Shown here piece after piece: positions 1-62,561 of a DNA stretch of 64,000 nucleotides. Made by a program: the position numbers and the translations under genes. Position 1 is the first letter of the stretch; every line of letters starts with the position of its first letter. The DNA comes from Raja brachyura. Its lineage: Eukaryota. The stretch lies in assembly GCA_963514005.1 (NCBI GenBank), contig OY740784.1, positions 93,992,001-94,056,000 of the forward strand. Reading direction: 5' to 3'. Below the pieces are notes generated by a model. The model made no database searches. It saw nothing but the letters and a program-made list of their open reading frames with translations, and was not told the DNA's origin.

Positions 1-1510
1 GTTTAAATTCTTCACGGATTGGGGGATGGTTGCACTTGTTTTGGGATGCATAGAGTACTATAACTTCTGATCCTTTCATACTGCAAAGTATTCAGGGATA
101 CAAAATTGAATTTGTTCACAAACTCCCCTTTCCTGTTCAGCATACACCTAGTCGAAAGTTTGTACTTTCACAGAAAGAAAAGACAGAAGGTCATGCTGAA
201 CTCTTAAGACTACATACAAAAGGGGTAATTGAGAAAACCAAAAGTGAGTCTCATGAGTTTGTATCGAACATCTTCACCAAAAATAAAAAAGACGGCAGAT
301 GCCGCATCACTATTGATTTGACAGAACTGACTTATTTCGTGCAGTACGCCCACTTCAAAATGGAAACTTTTGTTACTGCCAAACAACTAGTTTCCAAGAG
401 ATACATCATGGATTGCATCGACCTAAAATATGCATACTATTCAGTACCAATAGACAAAGATCATCGCAGATCTTTGAAATTTGTCTGGATGGGCAGCTCT
501 GGCAGTATAAAGCTTTGCCTAATGGATTATCATCAGCACCCAGACTGTTTACCAAATTATTGAAACCAGCGTGTCTCAGAAAACAAAAACATATTGTTAT
601 GGCATACCACGATGACATTTTAATCATGAGGAAAACTTTCGAGTTGGCCAAATTGGCTGTCTCAGCCTCTGAGCACTAATGTCAAAAACTGGGGTTTATC
701 ATCCATCCAGATAAGTCTGCCACCGAACAAAGTGTCAGACTTGATAGAAGCATGCAACAGCCTTACTGGCATCAGTAAACCGTCTATTCGGCAAGTAGCC
801 AGGGTCATTGGGAAGCTTGTGGCTGCCTTCCCAGCCACACAATTTGGGCCCTTGCATTACCAAAACTTACAAAGGGCAAAAATTGCAGCACTCAAACACC
901 ATGCTCGCCATTTTGACAGGCCAATGCAATTACTGGCAAAAGCAAAATTGGAATTACAATGGTGGATAGACAATGTTCGACATTGCTCTAATCCCATCAC
1001 AATCACGAATCCCTTGGTTATACTACAAACTGACGCCAGCGCTCAAGGCTGGGGAGCAACTAATACCACCTACAGTTGCGGTGGTAGATGGAATGCACAT
1101 GAATTAACCTTACTCCCGGCACTGGGAATTAATTATCTAGAAATGCTGGCAGCATTTCCTGGACTCCGGGCTTACTGTTCGGACATGCACCATCTGCACA
1201 TACGCTTACAAATTGATAATACCACTGTGGTGGCTTATATCAATCATATGGGTGGAATAAAGTCAATATCTTGTGATTAATTGGTCAATACAATCTGACA
1301 CTGGTGCTTAGAAAGGAACATTTGGATATCAGCCACTTACCTTCCAGATGGGCTAAATACAGTCGTGGACACCAAGTCACGCGAGTTTAATGACAACACC
1401 GAATGGATGTTGGACCGCAAAGTGTTTGCCGATATGATAGATCGGTATGGAACACCAGATATCGACCTTTGTGCATCCAGACTTAATCACCAAATACCAA
1501 CATATGATTT
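1..1510 (+). mobile_element. DIRS-type (tyrosine recombinase retrotransposon) pol relic: RT, RNase H and start of methyltransferase-like domain, frameshifted
   Basis: Motifs in order across frames: FVSNIFTKNKKDG..IDLTEL..HFKMETF, IDLKYAYYSVPI, ALPNGLSSAPRLFTK, AYHDDILI (YxDD). RNase H: LQTDASAQGWGA..INYLEMLA..LQIDNTTVVAYINHMGG. Then EWMLDRKVF..YGTPDIDLCASRLNHQ, typical of the DIRS MT region. Runs off the window start. Confidence 0.9.
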
Positions 1511-17377: not shown

Positions 17378-17568
17378 TGGTAGACAAAAGTGCTGGTGAA
17401 ACTCAGCGGTTACGGCAGCCTGTCAGTCTGAAGATCAGTCTGAAGAAGGGTTTCGGCCCGAAATGTTGCCTATTTCCTTCGCACCATAGATGCTGCCGCA
17501 CCCGCTGAGTTTCTCCAGCACCTTTGTGTACCTTCGATTTTACAGCATCTGCAGTTCCTTCTTGAACA
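17378..17568 (+). mobile_element. Penelope pLTR fragment with inverted 5' copy and degenerate hammerhead core (17440-17467)
   Basis: CTGAAGAAGGGTTTCGGCCCGAAATGTT; 17379-17409 is an inverted copy of 17502-17532. Confidence 0.75.
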
Positions 17569-21773: not shown

Positions 21774-24700
21774 TTTTTTTTTGTTTAATTTCTTTTATTA
21801 GAAGTAATCGATTTACAATATTGTAAACAGTTTTGCAAACATCAACTTAATTCCAAAATTTTTTAAAATAACCCATTGAAAGTTATTATCTTCTATTTTT
21901 TAGGAAAAAAAGATAGAGATAGAGTAGTTTTAAATCAATAAGAGAGTGATTAAATAATAATTTGATTATATAAAAGAGAAAAAGAAAATAGAAAAAGAAA
22001 ATAAGGTTACCAGAAAAATAAAAAAATATTATATATATATATAAATGAAAAACAACCAAATATGTTTTATCTAAAACTATTACAAATAATAGTATCAATG
22101 AAGACATGCTTATTAATCCTAGTATAAGAATATGTTATTCTCATCAAGTACCGCAGGGTACCCGTCAAGCTGTGTTGTCAAGAGCAGCTACTTCTCCGGG
22201 TACTGTATATATGGAGACCATATTTGTTCGAAAGAATTATATTTGTCCAGTAGGACAAATCTGATTCTTTCCAATTGTAACGTCTCCAACATTTCTGCCG
22301 CCCACATTTTAATTGTGGGGGTTAAAGTTCCCTTCCAAAATTTCAATATTAATTTTTTCCCTATTATCAAACAGTAATCAAAGAAATTTCTTTGATTTAC
22401 TGTAAGGACCGAGTTTGAATCCAAAATTCCAAGTATTATTATCTTTGGGTCTGGATCCAATCTAATTTTAAGAACCTCAGAGATAACCTTAAAAATTTCT
22501 GTCCAGTAATGATTCAATTTGGAACATGTAGCAAAACTGTGTGTTAAATTTGCTTCTAAATTCTTACATTTATCACAAATTGCAGAGAGATTGGGAAAGA
22601 TACTATTTAATTTAGTTTTTGAGTAATGTAATCTATATAATACTTTAAATTGTATCAATGTATGTCTGGCATTTAACGAACACCGATGTATTTGCTGTAA
22701 ACTTTCTTCCCAGATTTCTTTTGTTATGGATAACCCAATTTCTTTTTCCCATGCTTGCCGATATGTTTCAGTTGTTGGTTTCTCCTTATCCAAAATTATG
22801 TTATATATATATGCTATTAATTTTTCTGTATTTGGATGTAAATTAAACACATCATCTAATAATCCTGGTACTTTATTTTTGTAATCTTGTGTGTTGGATT
22901 TTATATAATCTCTAATTTGTAAGTACCTAAACAAATGTTGCGGAGACAGTCCGTAAATCTCTTGTAACTCTTGAAATAAAAGAAATTTTCCTTTACTATA
23001 AAGGTGTTCTATCCTTTTAATTCCTAAATCATCCCAATGTCTAAACCCTCCATCCAATATAGAGGGTCTAAATAATGGGTTTTTCGTTATTGGTAGTCTG
23101 AGTGAAAGATTATCTAATTGTAAAGTCTTAACTATTTGTTTCCAAATACGTCTATTATTATAAATTATAGGGTTATCCCTATACATTTTTTTTTGTACTT
23201 CCTTTGGGGCAAAGAGAATCGAGCCTACCTTATAAGGTAAACAATCTTCCTTTTCCATCTTTAACCACATTGGTTCCTGATCCACATTTACCCACCAAAA
23301 ATTCATATTCTTAATCTGAACTGCCCAAAAGTAATATAAAAAATTTGGAAGTGCTAATCCTCCATTTATCTTAGATTTACATAAATGTTTTTTACTTATT
23401 CTATGATTTTTATAATCCCAAATAAAACTATAAATAATATTATCTATTTTTTTAAAAAAAGTCTTTGGGAGAAAAAAAGGAATAGCCTGAAACAAATATA
23501 ATAATTGTGGTAAAAACACCATCTTTATAGCATTTATTCTACCAATCATGGATATAGGAAGTGTTTTCCAATACAGAATATTTTTTTTAAGTTTATCTAA
23601 TAATAGAGGGTAATTAGATTTAATTAGCGAATTATAAGATTTAGTTACATTAATTCCTAAATATTTAAATTTGTCTTTAACTAATTTTAATGGATATTGT
23701 TGTAATATGTTTAAATTAATTCCTGTTATAGGCATAATATCACTTTTGTTCCAATTAATCCTAAATCCTGAAAATGTACCAAATTTAGTTATAACATTAA
23801 ACAGCTTTGGTATACTAATTTCCGGTTTTGTAATATAAATCAACACGTCATCTGCATATAAAGATATTTTGTTGGTTGTAGTGTCGGTATTATAGCCATA
23901 GATTTCAGGTTCAGATCTGATTCTTTCTGCCAAAGGCTCTATCATCAAAGCGAATAATAAAGGCGATAATGGACATCCCTGTCTACAACCCCTAAAGAGT
24001 TTAAATTTAGCTGATAACATTTGATTAGTTAAGATTCTTGCCGTTGGATTCGAATATAGAATTCTTATCCATTTACAGAATCTATCCCCCAATTGATACT
24101 TTTCCATTATATTAAATAAATATAACCATTCTACCTGATCGAATGCTTTTTCCGCATCTAGCGATATAACTGCTAGTTCCCCATCCCGTACTTTTTTTGA
24201 ATATATAATATTAAACAGGCGTCTAAGATTATGGGATGAATAGCGTTTTGGAATAAAACCTGTTTGATCATGATGTATTAATTTAGAAATCACTAAACTT
24301 AATCTCTGAGATAAAACTTTAGTTAATATTTTTTGGTCTGTATTCAGAAGTGCGATCGCTCTATATGATCCTGGATCTTCCAAATCCTTATCTACCTTAG
24401 GTATGAGTGTAATTGTGGATTCGTTTAAAGAGTCTGGTAATTTGCCTTGTTCATATGAGTATCTATATACTGTATGTAGTCTTGGGGAAATCAAGTCTTG
24501 AAATTTTTTATAAAATTCGGCACTCAGGCCATCAGGGCCTGCTGCTTTTCCATTCTTTAACAAACTAATTGCTTCTTCAATATCTTTTACTGTTATTTCA
24601 GCGTTTAACAAATGTCTACCTTCCTGATCTAGATTGTTAATTTGACACTCTTGTAGAAATGTATCCATACCAACTGTTTGGCCTGTTACCTTAGATGAAT

Positions 24701-39904: not shown

Positions 39905-40500
39905 ATATGAAGCCAGAGGAAGGAATATAGGTAGAAGGGGATGAGGGAAGGTGAAAGGGAAAATGGGTCTGTGTGGGAATGGGACCCTTCCCTTTCCCAT
40001 ACATATCTTTCTGTCCTGGACCTCCTCCATTGCCAGAGTGAGACCATGTGCAAACTAGAGGACGAGCACCTCATATTTCACTTGGGTAGCTTACAGCCCA
40101 ATGTTAAGAACATTGAATTCTCCAATTTCAGTTAAGTAGCCGACAAACACCACCACCCTCCTCGACCCCTCCTTTTTTCCCCCATTCCCCTCTTGCCATC
40201 TCTTTTCCTTGTGCCCCACCTAGATGTACACCCACTTTTCTCTATCCCCTTCCCTCATCCTCTCCCACCTTTGTTCCTTCCTCTAGCTTCATATTTCATG
40301 CTTTTATCCTTTTTATCGCACTTCTTAGGCTATAGTCCAACCATCTGCAAAATCAAAATCCCTCCTTACCTGTTGCCTGATTTTGACCTCCCACCACCTC
40401 TCATCTAGTTTTCTCTCCCCACCCCCTCCCCCCAACTATAATCAGTCAGAAGAAGGATTCTGACACAAAATGTCAGCTATCAATGTTCTTCCGAGAAGTA
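39905..40500 (+). mobile_element. Penelope 3' fragment (GIY-YIG C-terminus, 3' UTR, degenerate hammerhead) with inverted 5' piece
   Basis: LSVLDLLHCQSETMCKLEDEHLIFHLGSLQPNVKNIEFSNF matches the end of the 61338 ORF. 39905-39965 is inverted to ~40235-40295. CAGAAGAAGGATTCTGACACAAAATGTC at ~40447. Confidence 0.8.
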
Positions 40501-45972: not shown

Positions 45973-46068
45973 GGGTTACACAAAAAGCTGGAGAAACTCA
46001 GCGGGTGCAGCAGCATCTAAGGAGTGAAGGAGATAGGCGACGTTTCGGGTCGAGACCCTTCTTCAGAC
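45973..46068 (-). mobile_element. Penelope-derived ~96-bp mini-insertion
   Basis: Near-identical to the terminal ~95 bp of the Penelope element at 61011-61105. Confidence 0.85.
46036..46068 (-). ncRNA. Minimal type I hammerhead ribozyme motif (PLE type)
   Basis: CUGAAGA-A-GGGUC(UC)GACCC-GAAACGUC: intact core, stem II and palindromic ACGU in place of stem III. Helix I is weak; activity untested. Confidence 0.75.
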
Positions 46069-48519
46069 AAACTGGCTTCCCCATAGAAGACAGAAGGTAA
46101 TGGTGGAAGGGTGTTATTCTGGATGGAAGCATGTGAGCAGCGGATTTCCTCTGAGATCTGTGCTGGAACCTCTGATGTTTATGATATATAATACATGGGT
46201 TGGACAAAAATGTAGATGTGTTGGTTGGTAAGTTTGCAGCCAAGACAAATATTGGTGTAGCTGAGGACAATGAAGCAGGCTGTCGGAGGATACAGCATGA
46301 TGTAGATATGGGCAGAGAATTGGCAACTGGAGTTTAATGCAGACAATGTGAGGTGCTGCAGTTTTGACGGTGAAATCTACTGGGAAAGCACACAATAAAT
46401 GGCAGGACCCTGACAGCACTGGTGTACTGCGGGATCCTGGGATCTAAGTTCATTTCACCCTAAAAGCAGCAAACATGTGAGTGGGAAATAGAGTGTCGCC
46501 TAATTATAGGAAGGATGTCAACAAAATAGAGAGAGTACAGAGGAGATTTACTAGAATGTTGCCTGGGTTCCAGCAACTAAGTTACAGAGAAAGATTGAAC
46601 AAGTTAGGTCTTTATTCTTCGGAGCGCAGAAGGTTAAGGGTGGACTTGATTGAGGTCTTTAAAATGATGAAAGGGATAGACAGAGTTGACGTGGATAAAC
46701 TTTTCCCATTGAGGGTAGGGAAGATTCAAACAAGAGGGCATGACATGAGAATTAAGGGACAGAAGTTTAGGGGTAACATGAGGGGGAACACTTTACTCAG
46801 AGAGTGGTGGCTGTGTGGAATGAGCTTCCAGCAGAAGTGGTGGAGGCAGGATCAATTTTAACATTTAAAAGTAAAGTGGATAGGTATATGGACGGGAAGA
46901 GAATGGAGGGGTATGGTCTGAATGCAGGTAGATAGGACTAGGGGAAAATAAATGGTCGGCAAGGAATGGAAGGGCCGAGAGGGCCTGTTTCCGTGCTGTA
47001 ATTGGTATATGGTTATATGGAAGACACGTGGAATGCTTCTTTGTTAGTCAGGCATTCCGTATTAGAGTCAGGAAAGTCTAATTTCAGCCTTGTCAGAGTT
47101 TGGATAGGCTGCATTTGAAGAATTGTACAGTTCAGGTTACGCCATTATAGGAAGGGTATGGAGGTTTTGGAAGGGTGCAGAATAGATTTACCAGGGTGTT
47201 GCCTGGATTAGAGTGTGCAATCTATAAAAATAGATTGGACAAACATGGATTATTTTCTCTGGAGCATAGGAGGTTCAGGAGAGAACTGATATAAGTTCAT
47301 AAAATTATGATAGAATCTATAGGGTAAACAGTCAGAATTGTTTTCCAGGGTGGAAATATCAAATACGAGAGGGCATAGCTCGAAATTGAGACTGGGAAAG
47401 TTTAAAAGAGTAGTGTCGGGCAATATTTTTTATACAGAGACTGGTAGGTGTCTGGAATGTGCTATTAAGGATGTTGGTGGAAGCAGCTACGATTAGTGGC
47501 ATTTAAGAAATTTGATTGGCATGTGAATTATGCAGGGCATAAAGTGATATGTATCACGTGCAAGCAGGAGGTATTAGTTTAATTCAGCATCATGTTTGGC
47601 ACATATATCTTGATCCAAAAAGTATTTTTGTGTGCTGTTCTGTACTGTTCTATGTTCCCTATACTCACGCTAGCTGGGTAGATATTATCATGACAAATTT
47701 GATGTGTCTCTGAATTTTCCTGATTGGATAGGAATTAATTGTGTGCATGAATCCCTGCATGTTTTAGAGGCAATAAATTTAGCCTCTTATGCCTGCTTGG
47801 TTAGAGCAAATTGTGGCACATGCTGAAAGCAAGAAGATTTAAATTATAAAATGCAATGACATTTTAACGACTTTTCTTGCCTGATGATGAACTGCTTGCT
47901 GAATGCAATTGTTGTCTTCATAGTTATCCATGCATTTTAATCTCTAAAAAATTATCAGCAATTATAGATGAGTTGCAGTTAGTTTTCCAGTAGATTACAT
48001 TTTCTGATCTATTGCTCTTGCCGTGCAGAAATCAGTTGGTATATGCACAACTAGATTAACGATAATGATAATTTTATATCTCTACTTTTTTATCCAAGGA
48101 AATATGCCTTAATTTAGTAGATATTAATCGAGTAAAATTTTTTGATATTTTCCTATAACTGCTCTTACTGAACAAAGAACCAAAGTTTATCTGGTACAAT
48201 TCGAGGCTTGGTGTTGGCCATGATTTTCAATCAGCAATCACGATATTTTGGTAATCAACCAATAAAGATATTAGGGAAACAGATTGACTTTTAATCTTGC
48301 CATTGTGCCAGATAACTTTTGAAATTAATTTCACAATGAAGGGACTTGAAATTACAAATTTATTTTTGTTGTGAAAGCTTCAAATTTAATGTGGGAGTGA
48401 ACCAGAACCCCTCTTTAAAGTTGTAATAATAAAATATACAGAAACTGGAAATTTAACAGATAAATCAGCTTTTCAAAAGGGTAGGTTGTGTCTAACCAGT
48501 CATACAAACTGTTTGGGAA

Positions 48520-48880
48520 AGTAAATTGTTATGTTACAGTTATACAAGACATTATTGAGGCTACATTTGGAGTTTAGTTTTACTCACCCTGCTATAGAAG
48601 GATGTTGTTAAGTTAGGAAGAATGCAGAGAAGATTAATGAGGATGTTGCCAGGACTTCGGGGCTTGTGATATAGGGAGAGGTTGGGCAGGCTAGGAGTAT
48701 TTCATGGAATGCAGGAAGATGAGGGATGATCTTTTAGAGGTGTATAAGATTATGAGGGCAACATATATAGTAGATGCACAGAGTAGAGGGATCAATAACC
48801 AAAGGATATATGTTTAAGGTGAGAGGGGAAAGATTACATTGGAATATGAGGGGCAACACATAGAGGGGTGGTGGGTACAG
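48520..48880 (+). mobile_element. Old CR1 3' fragment
   Basis: Degraded LYKTLLRLHLE..QRRLMRMLPGL..MRDDLLEVYKI. Confidence 0.7.
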
Positions 48881-48974
48881 ACTCTCTGCTTTATGTAAGG
48901 GTTATGTTCTGTAAACCCTCATGTAAGTCAGATTTTATGCTAGTCGAAATCAACATAAGAGTAAAAAACAAAAT

Positions 48975-49703
48975 ATCATAAGGTCATAAGTGATAGTAGA
49001 ATTAGGCCATTCAGCCCATCAAATTTATTCCACCATTCAATTATGGCTGATCTATCCTTCCTTTCTAACCACATTCCCGTGCCTTCTCCCCATAACCTCA
49101 GACACCTGTACTAATCAATAAATTATCTATCTCTTCCTTAAAAAATATCCACTGCCTTTCCTCCACAGGCTTCTGTGAATTCCACAGATTCATATTTCTC
49201 TGACTAAAGAAATTTATCCTCATCTCCTTCCTAAAAGAACATCCTTTAATTCTAGGACCTCTAGTCCTAGACTCTCCCACTGGTAGAAATATCCTCTCCA
49301 CATCCACTCTATCCAAGTATTTCTGCATGTTTGAACGAGGTTGCCCCTCATTCTTCAAAGCGAGTGCAGGCCCAGTGCTGACAAACACTCATCATAGGTT
49401 AACCTACTCATTCTTGGGATTATTCTTGTAAACCTCCTCTGGACCCTCTCCAGAGTCAGCACATCCTTCCTCCAATATGGTGCCCAGAATTGTTCAAAAT
49501 ATTTCATATACGGCATTACCAGCACCTTATAGAGCCTCAGCATTACATCCCTGTTTTTGTATACAAGCCCTCTTGAAATTAATGCTATCATTGAGTTTGC
49601 TTTCTTTACTATTGATTCAACTTGCAGATTAACTGTTTGGTGATTCTGCATTAGTGCTCCCAAGTCCCTTTGCACCTCCAATTTCTGGATTCTCTCCCCA
49701 TTT
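48975..49703 (-). mobile_element. CR1 3' region
   Basis: EVQRDLG..KKANSMIALISRG..LERVQRRFTRIIP; ESRTRG. Confidence 0.88.
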
Positions 49704-50221
49704 TCACCAGCTGCAGCACCCTCCAGTTGACGCAGCTGTTATTGCAGCTTACATTGTAGCTCGTGACTGACAGTGCTTTCTGTGGGCCGCCACCATCGAC
49801 AGGATGTGTTCGGTCACTGTGGGATTCCCTCCCCTCTTGCCAGCTGTCGCGGGTTTCTGTCAGCCATTGCTTTTGTCCGCTCTGTTGCTACCCCATCTAC
49901 TGTCGCACTCCCCTCCTTCTCCACTGCAGTTGCTAACATAGCCCACCTTGGGGCACGTCCTGTCAGTGGTGGCAGCTCGAAGAAAGTGCTGTTGGCCAGA
50001 GGCTACACCATGACTGCAACAATAGCGTGTCAACCTGATTATGCGGCAGCTGGTAAAGACAGGCTCGCTGGTGCACTTTGTGGAAGATGTAGGCGACTTG
50101 ACCAGCAATTGCTCTCCACTGCCTCCCTCATTCTCGCTCGCTTTCCACTGTCGCACCAACAGTGGCCAAAACCTGAAGAGCAGCAATCCCAGGCGATGCT
50201 TATATAAGTCAGGGAGTGCCT

Positions 50222-50410
50222 GCATAGGCAATGTACTGCCAGAGGAGATGGATGAGGCACATACTATAACAACATTTAAAGGACAGGTACATGGACAGGA
50301 AAGGTTTATGGGCCAAATGCGGGCAGGTTGGACTAGGTTGAGGGAGCAGTTGGTCAGCATGAGTACGTTGGGCCAAAGGGCCTGGTTTTGAGCTATATGA
50401 CTCCATGACT
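50222..50410 (+). mobile_element. Old CR1 3' tail
   Basis: CR1-like UTR ending TTGGGCCAAAGGGCCTG..TATGACTCCATGACTC. Confidence 0.65.
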
Positions 50411-52257
50411 CCAAAGGTAATGGTGGATAAGAAAACTAGAGTAGAGAAAATGGCATAGACTTTCGAATGCACTCAAAAGGTCCAATACCAAAACAAATGA
50501 TGGATAACAAAGGTTTCATATTTTCAGTTACAGAAATATGCCACTTTGTCATTCGATCAAAGGAGAGTTTGGGGATAGGCTATGGGCCTGATTGTGCCCG
50601 TGCTGTGATTGAAGAATGGAACAGGCAATGATTAGAGGCTGCACCTTGGGTCCTGGTGCAGATTATTGGGAAGAATCAGGTCAATAATTAACCAAGGATC
50701 ATCTTTGAGGAATGCCAGGGACAAGAGGCTATTCAGTGAATGGGAGTGAGATCCGCATCAAGCAGATGTGGGGGTCAGGTGATTGTGAACTTGGGGTTTG
50801 GGAGCAAAATCGGAAATTTGTGGTGGAGTTTATGCATTTGTTGAGGGAGGTCATAGTGGGGGATTATATATAATTGCTTGTACATCTGGCATAGAAATTG
50901 CTTCAGGGTTGTGACTCATGTCTGGTTGAATTTAGGAAGTGACATGAAATGAGCTGACATTTCTCATGACATAGAAGGAGGTAATTAGACCCGTTGATCC
51001 GTGCATCTCTATCCATTTCCTTTCCCTCTTATTCCCTGTAACCTATTTTGCCTCGTGCCCCTCAACAGTTTTTGTTTACTAACCAGCTACACCAGGTGTC
51101 ATTTATGGTAGATATTTTGCCCATCAACCAGCACCATTATGGTTGATATTACGTTTCACTCAGGCAAAATAATCACATTTTAATTGCTTTATGCTGAACA
51201 ATATTGCACCATAGAATGCCTGGACCAATGCTTGTCCAAGAGTTTAATCTTGTGGGCAGGGAAATGGAAGAGAAAATGCTACTTATATTGTGACAAGAAT
51301 CTATGCAGCAAGAATCTGTTATGTTGACCTGGAAATACCTGGAGTAGTCTAAATTCATTTCTTGCAAGCGGGAAACATTGGTACGGCCAGCATTTATTAT
51401 ACATCCCTAACGGCTTGAGACGGTGGTGCTCTTGTCTTGAACCATTGCTATCCATACAGTGAAAGTAGTGCTATCAGAGAGGAAGTTCTAGCATTTGGAC
51501 CCAGTGATAATGAAGAAATGTAGAAATTCATATGATCACGGCTCACTGGAGAGTGGAGATGAGGAGAGCTATTGAAGGTGCCCTGGGCTGTTGCTGCAAT
51601 GGTGGAAGAAATTAACATCCAAGCTGGTGTTTAGAATCTTTATCAATGACCATTTTCTGCTCCGGATGGCATTGGCTGCCGAGTGTATAGGTAGTTCTGC
51701 CATAACTCAATTGTTGCTCTCCTAGGAAACTGCAGTATATACTACAAGGTATGCTCATTATAGCAAATTGTGTTATAAAAGCAATTGTGTCAATCGGGGG
51801 GGGGGGGAAGGATCAGTATTAGGGGCTAGAGTTTCAGACTATCAATAACAAAATGATTATTACCACAGAAGTATTGAAAATTCTTTAAAAAAATAATAAA
51901 TTCATAGCCATAAGTTTATGTTTGTCACCGTTAAAAATGCAAAAGCTGCATGTTACATTGCTTAATAGAGTATCATTGTACAAGTGTCAATAGAAGCAAT
52001 TGCATGTCAATTTTAATATCCAATCTTGGATAAGTTCGCAGATGGGTTCTTAACAGTTAATGACATTGTATTACTTTGGGGATATTACATGGAAACAGTT
52101 TTTCTAGACAGCTTTTTCTGCTTGTCAATTTCCAAAATAACCTTTAAGCAATTTTCTAGTTTCTGGTTAAAACCAATTTGGCCTGTGCAAATTTGATAGC
52201 ATTCTCTAATTCAGAAAAATCATGCTAAATCGAGTTCACGTTCTTGAAGCCTGCATT

Positions 52258-52328
52258 AATGTCACCCATTCCTTCTCTCCAGAGATGCTGCCTGTCCCAC
52301 TGAGTTACTCCAGCATTTAGTTTCTACC
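52258..52328 (+). mobile_element. Penelope pLTR fragment beginning at the predicted hammerhead cleavage triplet
   Basis: GTCACCCATTCCTTCTCTCCAGAGATGCTGCCTGTCCCACTGAGTTACTCCAGC. Confidence 0.7.
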
Positions 52329-52701
52329 GTTAACATAGAACTACCTGTACTTGGTGCTGCACTTATCCAGATAAAGGGAGAGCTCCAACATATTCTTTGT
52401 AGAAAGCAAAATGGAATCACTTAAGGCAGAATACCCAATATCTGATCTATTCTTGAAGTCATAGCATTTATCCAATTGGTCCAGTCGCATTTCTGCTCAA
52501 CTATGATTCTATAATCCAGATGGTAGAGTCTTCAATAAAGTAATTACACTACATCTCAATGAAAGGTCGATAATAATTGCCATTTATTTCCCTCAATTAT
52601 AATTCCCAGCCCAACTCTGAATATTATATAAATCCTACTGTGTGGGACAGATTGTTTCATTATCTGAGCAATTGCAAATGCACACATTGTATTATTAAGG
52701 G

Positions 52702-52793
52702 TTACACAAAAAGCTGGAGAAACTCAGCGGGTGCAGCAGCATCTAAGGAGCGAAGGAGATAGGCGACGTTTCGGGTCGAGACCCTTCTTCAGA
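52702..52793 (-). mobile_element. Penelope mini-insertion with intact hammerhead core (52765-52792) and 12-bp TSD
   Basis: TATTATTAAGGG at 52690-52701 and 52800-52811; core CTGAAGAAGGGTCTCGACCCGAAACGTC. Confidence 0.85.
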
Positions 52794-52807
52794 GCCCTTT
52801 ATTATTA

Positions 52808-53243
52808 AGGGCTTGTTCCATTTAGGCTATTTTTAGGCGACTGCCGGTGGCTGTCATAGTCGTTGCAGGTCGCCGAAAAACCGGCGACTCGACCCCCCTT
52901 CGATACAAAATTTGAAATAGAATGATTACTTTAACAACAACAGAAAAATAAAGTCAGCACCGGCGACAACCTACGTTACCTGGCGACAACCTACGTTAAC
53001 CTGGTGACAACTACAACAGCATCTAGATCAGGAGAGGTCAAGCTATGCTCATTGGCGTCAAACCCACTGTCGCCGATTGTCTCCGAAAAATTTTCAACAT
53101 TGTGAAAATCCAGTGGTGACCAGAAAGACACTACGACTCTTTGGGCGACTGAGGAAACTACTCACGACCATACAGGCGACACCCCGGCAACTATGTGGCG
53201 ACAGCCTAGTCGCCTAAAAAATAGCCGGAGTGGGACAGGCCCT
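52808..53243. mobile_element. PIF/Harbinger-type MITE with TTA TSD
   Basis: TTA|AGGGCTTGTTCCA..GGCTATTTTTAGGCGACT ... AGTCGCCTAAAAAATAGCC..TGGGACAGGCCCT|TTA. Confidence 0.88.
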
Positions 53244-53745
53244 TTAGTATACATCCCCACTTTGAACCTAATGCGAGAAAGTCACGAATGAAGAAGCAAG
53301 GATATTTGGGGCCAGTGCACTGCTCTGGATTACACCTATGTTATGTCCTGGTCCTGAGGTGATTTATCCACAACAACTACAATCATTTATGTGCTCAACT
53401 TCAGCCAGTGGTTAGTTTTTATTCAATTTCCCATTGACAACATTATCATTTGGGCACCTTGATGTCATATCCAATCTCCTGGTTAATGTTTATCCTTCAT
53501 TCAATATCATTAGCATTAATTAATGATCCTTTTCAAATGATATGAAATAGTCACAATATGGTTTCCTCCGTCAATGTCCTGTTCCATAGTTGAATTATTT
53601 CGTTAGAAGTGCTCAGCAAATGTGGCCACCTATGCATGAAACAAAATAGAGTTAATGATTCATGTCTGCGATTTACGTGAAGGGAGCCTGATTTACTGAA
53701 TTCTAGCATGACACTATTTGTAGTATTACAGCCTAGATGGGCTAT

Positions 53746-53887
53746 CTCTCAACATCACCGTCTATATCTCTCGTTTCCCTGATCCCTAACCAGTCTGAAG
53801 AAGGGTCTCGACCCGAAACGTTGCCTATCTCGTTCGCTCCTTAGATGCTGCTGCACCCACTGAGTTTCTCCAGCCTTTTGTGTACCC
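53746..53887 (+). mobile_element. Penelope mini-insertion with hammerhead core (53795-53822) and TSD
   Basis: TGGGCTAT at 53738-53745 and 53888-53895; CTGAAGAAGGGTCTCGACCCGAAACGTT; matches 61011-61150 inverted. Confidence 0.85.
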
Positions 53888-54719
53888 TGGGCTATTTCTT
53901 TAGTTTGTAACGGCTTTGTCTGATTGAAAATTGTAATTTTCTGCAGTAAAGCCTTTCAAGGTCATTTCGGATGACTCCAGAGATTTGACTACACGTCCCG
54001 GTGTGCCAACCTCCCATAGTTTCTTCATTTACTCTACATCAGTAACATTAGGTTCATAAACCTAACCTGCTGCACTGACTCTGAGGAAGATAGATAAGTT
54101 CAAGTGATGTACAATTTAATTAAGCAAATGTACCTATTTAATTATTAATTTAATTCCATTCAAATATATTTAATTCATTTGTGTTTTTATTTTAATATTT
54201 ACATTTTAATGTAATTTTAATATTTTGAACTGCCTGATTAATTTTATATTATTTGAACATTTGACAATATTTGTGAATGCAGAGCCTCTGAGCCATCAAT
54301 CCTGTGGGCAGCTAGGAAGCTTAGCATTGTGACCTAATCAGCAGTCAAACTAAGCTGCACCTGAGCCTTGACCCTTTCAATGGGAAGGACCTGAATGTGC
54401 ACTGATTTACCAATTAGGAACTGGTTTTGGTAACCCAGTTAAGACTGCAGGTAATGAGAAAAAAACATTTATGATCAGGACCATTGGGAAAGAGTGATCA
54501 TAACATGATAAATGTGTACGTAAATTAAAGTGGCTAAATTGACTCTGAAACTTGGGTTTTACATCAGGATGAAGCAATCTATGAAGGCATGAGGCATCAT
54601 TTAGATATGGTAGATTGAGAAACTATATCAAAAGTAACGACAGTAAAGGTAAGACGTTATGTGTTTGCACTCTACTTAGAATAATATTTATATTTTTTTA
54701 ATATGAAGATGTAAAGAAG

Positions 54720-55005
54720 GGAAGCATGGTAGCGTAGCGGTAAAGTTGGTGCCTTACAGCACTAGAGACCTGTGTTCAATCCTGACTTTGGGTGCTGTCC
54801 GTACAGAGTTTGTATGTTGTCCCAGTGACCTGCACGTTTTTCCTCCGGGTGCTCCGGTTTCCTCCTACACTCTGAAGACGTACAGATTTGTGGGCTAATT
54901 TACTTGGTAAAATTGTAAATTGACCCTAGTGTTAGTCGACGGGGTGATCGCTGGTCTTTGCGGTCTTGGTGGACTGAATGGCTTGTTTCCCTAAACTAAA
55001 CTAAA
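54720..55005 (+). mobile_element. V-SINE/HE1-type SINE
   Basis: TGGTAGCGTAGCGG A box, GTTCAATCC B box, CTCCGGGTGCTCCGGTTTCCTCC core, (CTAAA)n tail. Confidence 0.85.
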
Positions 55006-55780
55006 TGTAAAGATAGCTGTCAGTCAAATCCATTTGAGCATATCAGATTTGTTAGGTTGGAAATTGCATGGCCTATCTAAATGCCCTCCAAAATGGCACC
55101 ATGCTTTGGATATTTGGCAATTTCTTTCCAGACCGGAGGTTAGTGATTTTTTTACATTGACATGGATTCCGAACTAGCTTACCCATAGAAGTCGGGGTAG
55201 TGGTGAAAGGAAGTAATTCTGGCTGAAAGTGTGTGAGCCATGTTGTTCCATAGAGACCTGTGTTGGGACCTCAGATAGACACAAAAAACTGGAGTAACTC
55301 AGCGGGACAGGCAACATCTCTGGAGAGAAGGGATGGGTGAAGTTTTGGGTCGAGACCCTTCTTCAGACCCTGTGGTTTGTGACTTGGATGAAAATTTTGA
55401 TGGGTAGATAAGTAACTTTGCAAACGACACAAAATTGGTGGTATTGTGAACGGTGCCAAAGGCTGTTAGGAGAGAGAGCTGGATATAGTTTAATTACAGG
55501 AATGGGTTGAGAGATTGCAGATGGAGTTTTATCTGAGCATGTACGAGGTATTAAACTTGATGAGGAGGTAGAATGTAAGGGTAAAGTGTACAGTTAGCGT
55601 TAAGATCCTTAACAACGTTAATGTACATTGGGATCTTGATGTTCAAGTTCATAACTCCTGAAATTGGCAATACAAGTAGATAGTGGTTATAAAAAAATTA
55701 TGCCTGTCTGTATTGGTCAGGGTATTAGGTAAAAGAGTGAGAATGTCATGTTGCAGCTTTATAAAACTTTAGTTCCACTG

Positions 55781-55858
55781 CTGAAGAAGGGTTTCGACCC
55801 GAAACGATGCCTATTTCCTTTGCTCCTTAGATGCTGCCTCACCAGCATTTTTGTCTAC
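55781..55858 (+). mobile_element. Penelope mini-insertion starting exactly at the hammerhead CUGAAGA
   Basis: Flanked by TTTAGTTCCACTG / TTTAATTCCACTG; core CTGAAGAAGGGTTTCGACCCGAAACGAT. Confidence 0.8.
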
Positions 55859-56179
55859 CTTTAATTCCACTGAACTTGGAGTATTGTGTGCAGTTCTGGT
55901 CACCCCATTGCATGAATAATGTGGAGGCTTTGAGAGGGTGAGAAGATGTTTACTGGGATGCTGCCTGGAGTAGAGTATGTCAATTTATAAAGAGAGATTG
56001 AACAAAGGTGGATTGTTTTCTCTAAAGTGTCAGAGGATGAGGGGTGACCTGATAGAAGTATATACAATTATGAAATAGAAAGATCAAAGACTAGGGCATA
56101 GTTTTGTGAGGGGGAAATATAAGAAGATGTGCAAGGCAAGTTTTTTCACCTAGAGTAGTAACTGGAACACACTGCACAG

Positions 56180-59616: not shown

Positions 59617-61010
59617 TGCATAAAGAGCAGGACAAATCCAGTCCAATTTACTGCTCAAACTGTTATCACGTGGAGCTTACTCGCTTAACCTGTCCACCAA
59701 TTTGGATTTTACCAGAAGAACTCTATTCCAGACCTGCCTTGGTCTAAACATGCACCATATAGCTAAATTCTGGAGATGAGATGAGGATAAACTGTGTTTA
59801 ACAACAAGTCAGCATTTTTGCTGAGTATGCCATTAAGTTGCCCTAGTAAATGTGAAATCAATGGGCATTAAAGGGGAAAGTCTAGTTTCCTGTCATCATA
59901 CTTGCATGGAGGCAGATGGTTGTGGTTATTGAAGGGCTATCATAATATCACTGTTCTTCAGGCCAGTGTGCTAGCATGCCCATGTTTTTCATGCTACCCA
60001 GCCACATTTCTCTGAATGTTGGACTATCCTCAGTATTTAGTCCGTCATCTTTATTCATGGAATTGCTAACAGGCATTGTAAATTGTAACAACTTGCTTGT
60101 ACTGAGTGAGGGTGTGCTATTTTAGAAGGCAAAATTTGAATTTGATCTCATTCAAACAAGTGTGGTTCCATTATGGCTAATTGGGAAATAGTTAGGAATG
60201 GTGTAAGATTTTTTGTGGTTTTCCCCAGCTGGATGAGATAAAGTTAGAAAACAGCTTTATTCAATTACATGCCCTCCCCAGCTTAAGAACGCACAACTTA
60301 TGTACAGCCCATATCTACAAACAAACATTTGGGAGATCACAGTTTAGATTTATTACCTGCTGTGGGGATGCAGGCAACTTCTGCCATGTGGGAACTTGGT
60401 TTGAAGCCATTTTGCGATCTGTTCGACTTAAAAACAGTGCACAGGAACAGAACCCTATCTGCATATTTACAGTGGTATTGCATGAATATTGAAGAAGACA
60501 CATAACTCAAGCAGCTACAAGATTACTGGACCTGGAGAATTATGGTTGTCTATTGGTATGCTTTCTGTGAGTCCTGCTCCTTGCCTCTTCTGCTGTGGTG
60601 TCTGCATTGTGCAAAAGTCCTCTACCGTTCTCCAGAGACATGGGATGAAGTACTTGTGCACTTTAAAGGCATAGTTCTGCAGTGCACAGTAGTCGTAGCA
60701 TCTGACTGGGAACTTTCTTTTAATGGCACAAGACTGTCTAAAGCCTTGGAATTAATGCTTGACTGAACAAGTCAATACCAATTCTTTCTGCTTTCAGCAA
60801 CTGCTATGTTAGCATTTTAACTCTAATTATATAATTCCATGAGGCTGCTTCTCAATTTAATAGTGTCTCACAAATTATTTTGGCACTTTTTACCATCTCT
60901 ATTCCATGATTCATAGAAACATAGAAAAATAGGTGCAGGAGTAGGCCATTCGGCCCTTCGAGCCAGCACCTCCATTCAATATGATCATGGCTGATCATTT
61001 AACATCAATA

Positions 61011-62561
61011 GGGTACACAAAAGGCTGGAGAAACTCAGCGGGTGCAGCAGCATCTAAGGAGCGAAGGAGATAGGCGATGTTTCGGGTCGAAACCCTTCTT
61101 CAGACTGGTTAGGGATCAGGGAAACGAGAGATATAGACGGTGATCTGGAGAGATAAAGAACAATGAATGAAAGATATGCAAAAAAGTATCGATGATAAAG
61201 GAAACAGGCCATTGTAAGCTGTTTGTAGTGTGAAAATAAGAAGCTAGTGCGACTTGGGTGGGGGAGAGATAGAGAGAGAGGGAATGCCAGGGCCCGAGGG
61301 CTGAGGGAGAGGTGGGAAGGGGAGGAGACAGCAAGGGTTAACAGAATTGAGAAAATTCAATGTTCAAGCCCTGAGGATGCAGACTCCCCAAGCGGAATAT
61401 GAGGTGCTGTTCCTCCAACTTGCGGTGTTGCTCACTCTGGCTGTGGAGGAGGCCCAGGACCGAGAGGTCGGATACAGAATGGGAGGGGGAGTTGAAGTGC
61501 TGAGCCACCGGGAGGTCGGGTTGGTTATTGCGGACCAAGCAGAGGTGTTCGGCGAAACGATCGCCAAGCCTCCGCTTGGTCTCATCGATATAGATCAGCT
61601 GGCATCTGGAGCAACGGATACAGTGGATGAGGTTGGAGGAGGTGCAGGTGATCCTCTGTCGGACCTGGAAGGACTGCTTGGGTCCCTGAAAGGAGTGGAG
61701 GGGGGAGGTGAAGGGACAAGTGTAGCATCTCTTGCGGCTGCAAGGGAAAGTGCCCGGGGAAGGGGTGGAGCGGGAGGGAAGGGCAGAATTGACAAGGGAG
61801 TTGCGGAGGGAGCGGTCTTTGCGGAAGGCAGACAGGGGGGGAGATGGGAAGACGTGGCGAATGGAGGGGTCACGTTGGAGGTGGTGAAACTGGCAGAGGA
61901 CTATGTGTTGTATATGCCGGCTGGTGGGGTGAAAGGTGAGGACCAGGGGGACTCTGCCCTTGTTGTCAGTGGGGGAATGGGGAGAGAGGGCAGTGTTGCG
62001 GGGTATGGAGGAGACCCTGGTGCGAGCCTCATCTATAGTGGGGGAGGGGAATCCCCGTTCTCTGAAGAATGAGGACATTTGTGATGACCTGGTGTGGAAC
62101 ATCTCATCCTGGGAGCAGATGCGGCATAGACGGAGGAATTGGGAATAGGGGATGGAGTCCTTACAGGAGGCAGGGTGGGAGGAAGAGTAGTCCAGGTAGC
62201 TGTGGGAGTCAGTTGGTTTGTAGTGGATGTCGCAGGAGTGTATCACCTGCAATAGAGATGGTGAGGTCAAGGAATGGTAGGGAAATGTCAGAAATGGTCC
62301 AAGTGTATTTGAGTGCCGGATGGAAGTTGGTGGTGAAATGGATGAAGTCAGTCAGTTGTGTGTGGGTGCAGGAGGTGACACCAAAGCAGTCGTCGATGTA
62401 ACGGAGGTAGAGGTCGGGGATGGGGCCTTGGTACGCCGAGAACAAGGATTGTTCGACGTACCCGACAAAGAGGCAGGCGTAGCTGGGGCCCATGCGTGTG
62501 CCGATAGCTACACCTTGTGTTTGGAGGAAATGGGAGGAGTCAAAAGAGAAGTTATTGAAGG
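61011..62561 (-). mobile_element. Penelope-like element (Neptune type), 5'-truncated: RT C-terminal half, Cys linker, GIY-YIG endonuclease, pLTR with hammerhead
   Basis: GTRMGPSYACLF..YLRYIDDCFG..LPFLDLTI; HYKPTDSHSYL; CSRKRCYTC linker; NLIHCIRCSRCQLIYIDETKRRLGDRFAEH; one frameshift near 62230. Confidence 0.93.
61073..61107 (-). ncRNA. Minimal hammerhead ribozyme motif in Penelope pLTR
   Basis: CUGAAGA-A-GGGUU(UC)GACCC-GAAACAUC, 3' of the endonuclease ORF. Confidence 0.7.

What the first reader, a model, noticed from the sequence alone, without database searches (positions are those of the whole stretch)
45973..55858. Hammerhead-bounded Penelope mini-elements: independent insertions whose 5' ends coincide with the ribozyme core
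Seen: several 80-140 bp insertions share the 3' terminus of the Penelope pLTR. Four separate copies (45973-46068, 52702-52793, 55273-55370, 55781-55858) have their 5' boundary within about 0-4 nt of CTGAAGA. A fifth (52258) begins at the GTC cleavage triplet. At least three copies of this repeat (52702, 53746, 55781) have their own TSDs. Established: Penelope-like elements carry minimal type I hammerheads with a palindromic stem III that can act as dimers. Inference: random 5' truncation should not cluster like this, so either reverse transcription stops at the folded ribozyme or a ~100-nt ribozyme-defined RNA is mobilised as its own non-autonomous unit. Self-cleavage alone would explain only the 52258 boundary.
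Basis: partly seen in the sequence, partly recalled or inferred. Interest (0 to 1): 0.7.

Follow-up and report, generated by a model that had tools for sequence, protein, structure and literature searches.

The report
Run-off copies of Penelope RNA starts
These short repeats are end pieces of a very common Penelope-type jumping gene; most begin two to four letters in front of its small ribozyme motif and almost none at the predicted cut site, which likely marks the capped start of the element's RNA rather than anything the ribozyme does.

Summary
The clustering is real; the proposed causes are not supported. The inserts are the terminal ~95 or ~130 nt of an intact Neptune-like Penelope element, about a million fragments genome-wide. 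Of 29,497 exact copies of one subfamily's core, 19-25% are lost per base at -3, -4 and -5 (0 = C of CTGAAGA), against at most 1.5% from mutation; 32% read into upstream pLTR. The predicted cleavage site shows almost no excess of ends (0.72% vs 0.42%), and 52258 starts 6 nt before it. An untemplated G precedes 55-58% of junctions at -3/-2 (27-30% expected); the context CCAGTCT is initiator-like. Short and long copies share alleles, so there is no separate mini-element master. In 34 junctions the same start is joined to early ORF sequence, often through oligo-A and G. Best reading (0.65): reverse transcription starts at internal tail sites near the RNA's 5' end and runs off its capped start. Against: no RNA reads could test the start; long ORF copies rarely begin there (2 of 22); no strand-transfer scar was found. 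The scan noted this pattern before, in this genome and others.

The parts
45974..46068 (-). Subfamily-A short copy: starts at -2 (GTCTGAAGA), ends at the first 3' terminus (+93); sits inside a LINE fragment; no clear TSD
52258..52326 (+). Older subfamily (ACCCAT type) copy truncated at +22, 6 nt upstream of the predicted scissile bond; not a cleavage product
52701..52793 (-). Subfamily-A short copy starting at -1, 12-bp TSD, 5-6 extra nt at the 5' junction
53746..53887 (+). Subfamily-A copy that reads about 49 nt into the upstream pLTR; 8-bp TSD
55273..55370 (-). ACCCAT-type short copy starting at -2, preceded by GG; inside a LINE fragment
55781..55859 (+). Short copy starting at 0 with 3-nt microhomology to the target, internal deletion, TSD 8 bp exact (13 with one mismatch)
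17379..17565 (.). Head-to-head pair of short copies; the + arm starts at -4 after a duplicated CAGTCTGAAGA and carries the ~35-nt tail; 7-bp flanking duplication
61010..62560 (-). 5'-truncated parent element: end of RT, CX4CXXC linker and GIY-YIG region (ORF 61338-62351), 3' UTR, hammerhead motif and first 3' terminus; 5' boundary approximate
40445..40499 (+). Old, diverged copy with pyrimidine-rich upstream pLTR

Best explanation
The short copies are end pieces of a Neptune-like Penelope retrotransposon whose 5' ends pile up at -4..0 with an untemplated G, and they are likely run-off cDNAs that stop where the element's RNA, predicted to be capped, begins. Shown: parent element, the peak, no peak at the cut site, the extra G, shared alleles with long copies, two fixed 3' ends (+93/94 and +129), and junctions that join this start to early ORF sequence. 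Inferred: RNA polymerase II starts at the initiator-like CCAGTCT (A at -3, G at -2). The element protein primes reverse transcription at the two internal tail sites, which lie only ~95 and ~130 nt from that start. The enzyme reaches the 5' end, adds C (read as G), and the cDNA is joined to the target with or without microhomology, paired with a second cDNA from the other nicked strand (head-to-head pairs), or jumps to an RNA 3' end and goes on. The hammerhead coincides with the boundary only because it forms the first ~31 nt of the RNA; it is copied uncut.
For: Loss per base 24.6%, 20.1%, 18.9% at -3, -4, -5 versus 3.9% over -6..-11; single-base variants at -3, -4, -5 number 70, 127 and 115 against at least 8,618 exact copies. 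G precedes 2,039 of 3,741 junctions at -3 (54.5%; 27.4% expected) and 3,525 of 6,073 at -2 (58.0%; 30.1%), but 773 of 2,803 at -4 (27.6%). G/(G+A) is 65% at -3 versus 41 and 35 of the first 100 listed at +28 and +38 (counted by hand). L272 and L287 read TSD + GG + GTCTGAAGA. An extra G marks full-length L1 junctions as cap-derived (PMC11702581, passage). Purine before +28: 306 of 42,514; before +38: 192 of 45,620. Short versus long: G41A 17/143 vs 7/64, T80C 15/142 vs 9/62, first:second 3' end 81:37 vs 31:14, divergence 1.0% vs 1.1%. Across subfamilies 99 of 146 core-bearing copies lack pLTR-like upstream sequence. 34 ORF-to-start junctions: linker ends in G in 18, holds AAA in 11; AAA within 9 nt 12/34 vs 12/114 single copies, p=0.002. 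In vitro a Poseidon element starts at two internal sites that define the tail, extends both strands and uses uncut RNA (PMC11167929). D. virilis Penelope has an internal promoter in the pLTR (PMC2377424).
Against: No RNA evidence: all 24 runs offered were contigs, which cannot show starts. Of 22 copies with long ORF sequence only 2 begin at -4..0, and one of those is itself a jump product; 11 carry upstream pLTR and 9 stop inside the terminal region. About a third of core copies read past the site, so longer RNAs exist. Ends spread over -4..0 and the largest class is -2, not the initiator A. Some G at -2 can come from slippage onto GGGTCT at +8 (L216, L326, L335). Untemplated C addition can occur at uncapped ends (recalled). 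No G excess at -4 or -3 in pLTR-bearing copies (10 of 100 at -4 vs 18 of 100 at -5). The initiator consensus is recalled, and the same letters also read as a 3' splice site. The jump junctions come mostly from targeted searches; 1 of 51 in the unselected set.
Confidence: 0.65

Rival explanations
1. The template does end at -3/-2, but the end is made after transcription: a longer RNA is trimmed back to a protein-bound or folded domain in which the 5' GUCUGAAGAAGG pairs with the end of the tail.
For: The -3..+129 RNA of subfamily A folds with its 5' end paired to the tail end (about 10 expected pairs in 4 of 6 copies versus 0.4-6.4 with a shuffled tail). A third of copies show longer RNAs. Terminal G addition need not need a cap.
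Against: The pairing is weak or absent in older subfamilies (0-9 pairs, mostly under 6), which show the same boundary. The initiator-like context is kept across unrelated upstream sequences.
Confidence: 0.15
2. YAG|TCTGAAGA is a 3' splice site; spliced RNAs carry foreign or element exons upstream, so homology ends at -1 and the AG or G of exon ends mimics -3/-2.
For: The upstream pLTR is pyrimidine-rich and ends in YAG in most subfamilies. One locus carries the exact join of the donor-like site before the ATG to this acceptor in both inverted arms (L161/L162). In D. virilis the intron ends at the hammerhead's helix I (PMC4209133).
Against: 0 of 30 further loci with the same junction letters were such joins. 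TSDs often abut the element directly or through 1-2 G. G at -3 is not the usual exon end (recalled). The putative branch point is only 6-9 nt from the AG.
Confidence: 0.08
3. A ribozyme-defined short or circular RNA, or a mini-element master copy, spreads as its own non-autonomous unit.
For: Very high copy number; a few tandem units with repeated identical junctions (L331, L343, L355) resemble non-LTR retrozymes.
Against: Neither end is the cleavage site; no private alleles in short copies; most copies are monomers or head-to-head pairs; junction positions differ between loci.
Confidence: 0.06
4. Reverse transcriptase stalls at the folded ribozyme.
For: Some ends fall inside the motif (4 of 32 at +3..+24).
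Against: The peak lies on the far side of the motif; no stable fold upstream; the extra G and jumps indicate a template end.
Confidence: 0.03
5. The peak is a joining artefact: the near-palindrome CAGTCTG favours annealing of two cDNAs or fold-back there.
For: Many copies lie head to head with junctions in this word.
Against: Single TSD-bounded copies show the same peak (114 single copies, 104 at -4..0), and a palindrome does not add G.
Confidence: 0.03

Closest known systems
Endonuclease-bearing Penelope-like elements, Neptune type (PMC8557442, passages)
   Same: One ORF with RT, CX4CXXC linker and GIY-YIG; pLTR; optional ~35-nt tail; adjacent inverted truncated copies; partial tandems; TSDs.
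   Different: The passages read describe 5' truncation without a preferred point; here about two thirds of core-bearing copies stop in a 10-nt window with an extra G.
PAc (Poseidon, Anolis) in vitro (PMC11167929, parts 1-2 of 4)
   Same: Two internal start sites that define the tail; both strands extended; hammerhead cleavage not needed; no reads at the cut site.
   Different: There the ORF starts inside the hammerhead and 5' ends of genomic copies were not analysed in the parts read; here the first ATG lies 163 nt after the core and the 5' ends are mapped genome-wide.
Minimal type I hammerheads of metazoan PLE pLTRs (PMC4209133, parts 1-2 of 4)
   Same: CUGAnGA, one bulged nt, G-C closing helix II, GAAAC-GUC with palindromic 15.2-16.2 and no loop 3.
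   Different: Helix I is only 2 bp and helix II 5 bp; no compensatory change seen; activity untested.
Non-LTR retrozymes (bioRxiv 10.64898/2026.07.22.740005, parts 1-3 of 5)
   Same: Non-coding, pLTR-derived, hammerhead-bearing; solo copies spread over chromosomes.
   Different: Defined by tandem units with a hammerhead each; these copies are monomers or inverted pairs whose ends are not the cut site. The few tandems may be a birth stage.
Full-length L1 insertions with cap-derived G (PMC11702581, passage); retroviral strong-stop DNA (recalled)
   Same: Extra G where the cDNA reaches the template's 5' end; a short cDNA from an internal start near the 5' end.
   Different: Here the short product is primed on the target DNA and is integrated as such; no sign of a homologous transfer was found.

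Membership tests
EN+ Penelope-like element | Single ORF with RT and C-terminal GIY-YIG | tested here: met
   L151 ORF 1,203 aa stop to stop; RVT_1 E=2e-4 and GIY-YIG E=1.6e-3, both below Pfam's cut-off; window ORF 61338-62351 is its C-terminal part and alone had no Pfam hit
EN+ Penelope-like element | pLTR, optional 30-40 bp tail, inverted and tandem copies, TSD | tested here: met
   3' ends at +93/94 and +129; tandem array L198-L201; head-to-head pairs; TSDs 8-17 bp
Neptune clade | CX2-5CXXC linker between RT and EN | tested here: met
   CNRKRCYTC in L151; motif as given in PMC8557442, which says Nematis has it too
Neptune clade | Placement in an RT tree | not tested
   No reference PLE sequences at hand
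Minimal type I hammerhead | Core CUGAnGA/GAAA, bulge before helix II, palindromic 15.2-16.2, NUH triplet | tested here: met
   38 aligned copies against the description in PMC4209133; Rfam models gave no hit
Minimal type I hammerhead | Helices I and II supported by covariation | tested here: inconclusive
   85% of cells paired versus 4-50% when slid, but no compensatory change and no excess over shuffles; helix I 2 bp
Minimal type I hammerhead | Self-cleavage as monomer or dimer | not testable with these tools
   Genomic copies show at most a small excess of ends at the cut site, 0.72% vs 0.42%
Non-LTR retrozyme | Tandem units, each with a hammerhead | tested here: not met
   Window copies are monomers or one inverted pair; tandems were rare and found by targeted search
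Non-LTR retrozyme | Cleaved and circular RNA | not testable with these tools
   Only contigs available
SINE-like non-autonomous family with its own master | Diagnostic alleles apart from the autonomous partner | tested here: not met
   143 short vs 64 long copies, no differing site; subfamily A only

The most novel reading that the evidence does not exclude
Penelope-like elements replicate by a strong-stop-and-jump route: the enzyme starts about 100 nt from the capped 5' end, runs to the cap, jumps to the 3' end of the same RNA and copies the rest, which rebuilds the pseudo-LTR without a tandem source. The 5' hammerhead is masked by pairing with the tail, while a tail-less 3' copy could cut and set the RNA's 3' end. 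The hundreds of thousands of stubs are failed jumps, and jumps on short, oligoadenylated transcripts seed retrozyme tandems.
Probability: 0.25. Interest if true: 0.8.

Novelty: new variant of a known kind. Interest (0 to 1): 0.5.

Why it matters
How Penelope-like elements copy themselves, rebuild their pseudo-LTR and use their hammerhead is open: PMC2377424 sees no obvious mechanism for pLTR regeneration, and PMC8557442 calls the hammerhead's function unclear. Tens of thousands of near-identical copies give an in vivo record: a fixed template start with a cap-like G, uncut ribozyme, internal starts and end jumps. This yields base-level predictions for CAGE and for the existing in vitro assay. 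It is a refinement of a known class, not a new system. For annotation, these repeats should be filed as Penelope stubs, not as a ribozyme SINE.

Tried and rejected
Rfam scan: no hammerhead family hit. DNA search of the genome with the repeat returned nothing because common words are skipped; replaced by sampling and exact patterns. Positions above +16 are 1 too high (faulty reference); redone with a natural copy; searches failed on script errors. Splicing as the general cause: 1 locus (L161/L162), 0 of 30 further loci. ORF-bearing copies as a test of a shared start looked supportive at first (5 of 20, 27 of 38), but most of these proved to be jump products; among long ORF copies it is 2 of 22. 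Scar of homologous strand transfer at -4/-3: not found. Stutters ending at the cut site: 1 stutter in the loci held, ending near +28..+29, too little to judge. RNA: 24 runs, contigs only; the overlay gave no start. Covariation of the hammerhead: none. PMC5785218 (dimer cleavage) is not held; known here only from a reference list and a review passage. Supplements of the papers were not read and may hold 5'-end plots.
Full report
Numbering. Position 0 is the C of CTGAAGA on the element's strand; the predicted scissile bond is +27/+28. K is the 38-nt core of the youngest subfamily (A) from position 0.

What the repeat is. Ten matches lie in the window. One (61010, minus strand) follows an ORF ending in a GIY-YIG-type region. 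That protein has many near-identical relatives in the genome. Locus L151 holds an open frame of 1,203 aa with a CX4CXXC linker before the endonuclease and weak RT and GIY-YIG Pfam hits. In a natural tandem (L199) the order is ORF end, ~240-nt pyrimidine-rich 3' UTR, hammerhead motif, first 3' terminus (+93/94), ~35-nt tail (to +129), ATG at +163. This is an endonuclease-bearing Penelope-like element of Neptune type by motif; no tree was built. 434 fragments in 1.2 Mb scale to roughly a million. A cartilaginous-fish host is my recalled reading of the other repeats, not a call result.

Observation in the window. Four copies start at -2, -1, -2 and 0; TSDs are clear at 52701, 53746 and 55781. 53746 carries about 49 nt of upstream pLTR. 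52258 starts at +22 and includes GTC, so it is not a cleavage product.

Genome-wide test. In 120 evenly spaced 10-kb stretches, 17 of 32 young A copies end within -7..+2, 2 within -40..-8, 7 further upstream and 6 inside the terminal region. Exact counts: K 29,497; to -2 24,671; -3 18,598; -4 14,857; -5 12,054; -11 9,494. Loss per base is 8.5%, 24.6%, 20.1%, 18.9% and 3.9%. Substitution explains at most 1.5% per base (70-127 variants against at least 8,618 exact copies). The pattern is not confined to A: 99 of 146 core-bearing copies of all subfamilies lack pLTR-like upstream sequence, 21 of 33, 16 of 26, 27 of 41 and 35 of 46 by group (a rough classifier by pyrimidine content, 12% background).

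Cut site. A purine replaces the templated C before +28 in 306 of 42,514 copies and before a neutral site (+38) in 192 of 45,620; before -3 it is 3,114 of 18,598. The 1.7-fold excess at +28 may be rare cleavage or CpG mutation; I cannot tell. Templates are overwhelmingly uncut, as in the in vitro study of a Poseidon element (PMC11167929).

Template end. Where the match stops at -3 the next base is G 2,039, A 1,075, T 627; at -2 G is 3,525 of 6,073; at -4 G is 773 of 2,803, equal to background. At the two control sites G was 41 and 35 of the first 100 purines listed (hand count; these include point substitutions). Two loci read TSD, GG, then -2. An extra G at full-length L1 junctions is ascribed to the cap (PMC11702581, passage). 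The context CCAGTCT or TCAGTCT fits the initiator consensus with +1 at -3 (consensus recalled) and is kept across subfamilies with unrelated upstream sequence. Part of the G at -2 may be slippage onto GGGTCT at +8 (L216, L326, L335), which also needs the enzyme to run out of template.

No separate master. 143 short and 64 long A copies from all loci held have the same variants, divergence (1.0% vs 1.1%) and ratio of first to second 3' end (81:37 vs 31:14). The loci were partly chosen by pattern, so this is not a random sample.

Jumps. 48 places match exactly from 0 to the ATG; 38 distinct ones were examined, and 27 start at -7..0. Most run only a short way into the ORF and then join the start of a second copy. 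Of 34 such junctions (one locus counted twice, one mis-parsed), 18 break within 67 nt of the ATG, 18 have a linker ending in G and 11 a run of AAA; AAA within 9 nt is 12/34 versus 12/114 in single copies, p=0.002. I read this as the enzyme reaching the 5' end and jumping to the oligoadenylated 3' end of a short transcript. The search demanded a complete second pass, which favours short units; in the unselected set 1 of 51 was a jump. A second class joins ORF to upstream pLTR through microhomology and looks like internal deletion.

Results against. Long ORF copies mostly do not begin at the site: 11 carry upstream pLTR, 9 stop inside the terminal region, 2 begin at -4..0. No G excess marks -4 or -3 in pLTR-bearing copies, so a retrovirus-like homologous transfer has no support from this test. 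No raw RNA reads were on offer. The site also reads as a 3' splice site, and one locus has the exact donor-acceptor join in both arms, though 0 of 30 others did.

Ribozyme. The motif fits the minimal hammerhead description (PMC4209133) but has a 2-bp helix I, no Rfam hit and no compensatory change in 38 copies. An RNA that starts at -3 leaves no room for a longer helix I. In subfamily A the tail is predicted to pair with the core; older subfamilies show this weakly.

Comparison and novelty. Every structural piece is known: tail, inverted pairs, internal promoter, minimal hammerhead. Seven literature searches and the texts read showed no report of PLE 5' ends piling up at the transcript start with an extra G or of these end jumps; subscription papers and supplements were not seen. 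Read: PMC4209133 and PMC11167929 parts 1-2 of 4; PMC2377424 parts 2-3 of 4; bioRxiv 10.64898/2026.07.22.740005 parts 1-3 of 5; PMC3846280 passages and Discussion; passages of PMC8557442, PMC11702581, PMC11371274 and PMC6765202. Earlier notes of this scan, seen after my reading was formed (one search showed none), reach the same view in this genome and others; they are not independent support.

Verdict. A real, strong pattern in a known class of element; it most likely records where the RNA begins. Confidence 0.65, interest 0.5, new variant of a known kind.

Noticed in passing
L161/L162 (G000:C16:43672584-43672863): Both arms of an inverted insertion carry the exact join of the donor-like site just before the ATG to the acceptor-like site before the hammerhead; one arm spans about one 165-nt unit. 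Could be a spliced or back-spliced RNA, or a jump by AG microhomology.
   Followed up: partly
L001-L120 (ORF ends): In many subfamilies the stop codon lies in a donor-like AG-GT(A) word and the pyrimidine-rich 3' UTR ends in YAG, as if the whole 3' UTR could be an intron.
   Followed up: no
L198-L201 (G000:C18:46.36-46.37 Mb): Head-to-tail array of at least four near-identical element units with a period of 3,965 bp.
   Followed up: no
L331, L343, L345, L348, L355, L359: Short tandem arrays of 200-300-nt units made of hammerhead, tail and ORF start; look like newborn non-LTR retrozymes.
   Followed up: partly
L199 (-3..+129): AGATGCTG (+48) and CAGCATCT in the tail are complementary and kept in all subfamilies seen; the first 3' terminus lies inside this predicted stem-loop.
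   Followed up: partly
window 22188-25481 (-): 1,097-aa open frame with an RT domain (RVT_1, E=8.5e-39) and L1-like appearance; 5' part not examined.
   Followed up: partly
window 54..1280 (+): Broken RT and RNase H-like frames resembling a DIRS-type element (recalled resemblance).
   Followed up: no
window 52815-53245: About 430-bp element with terminal inverted repeats, next to the 52701 copy; looks like a non-autonomous DNA transposon.
   Followed up: no
window 54718-55005: tRNA-headed SINE ending in (TAAAC)n, resembling the HE1/V-SINE type (recalled).
   Followed up: no
window 17390-17525: The weak Rfam Vault hit (E=0.18) is the head-to-head pair folding back on itself, not a vault RNA.
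   Followed up: yes
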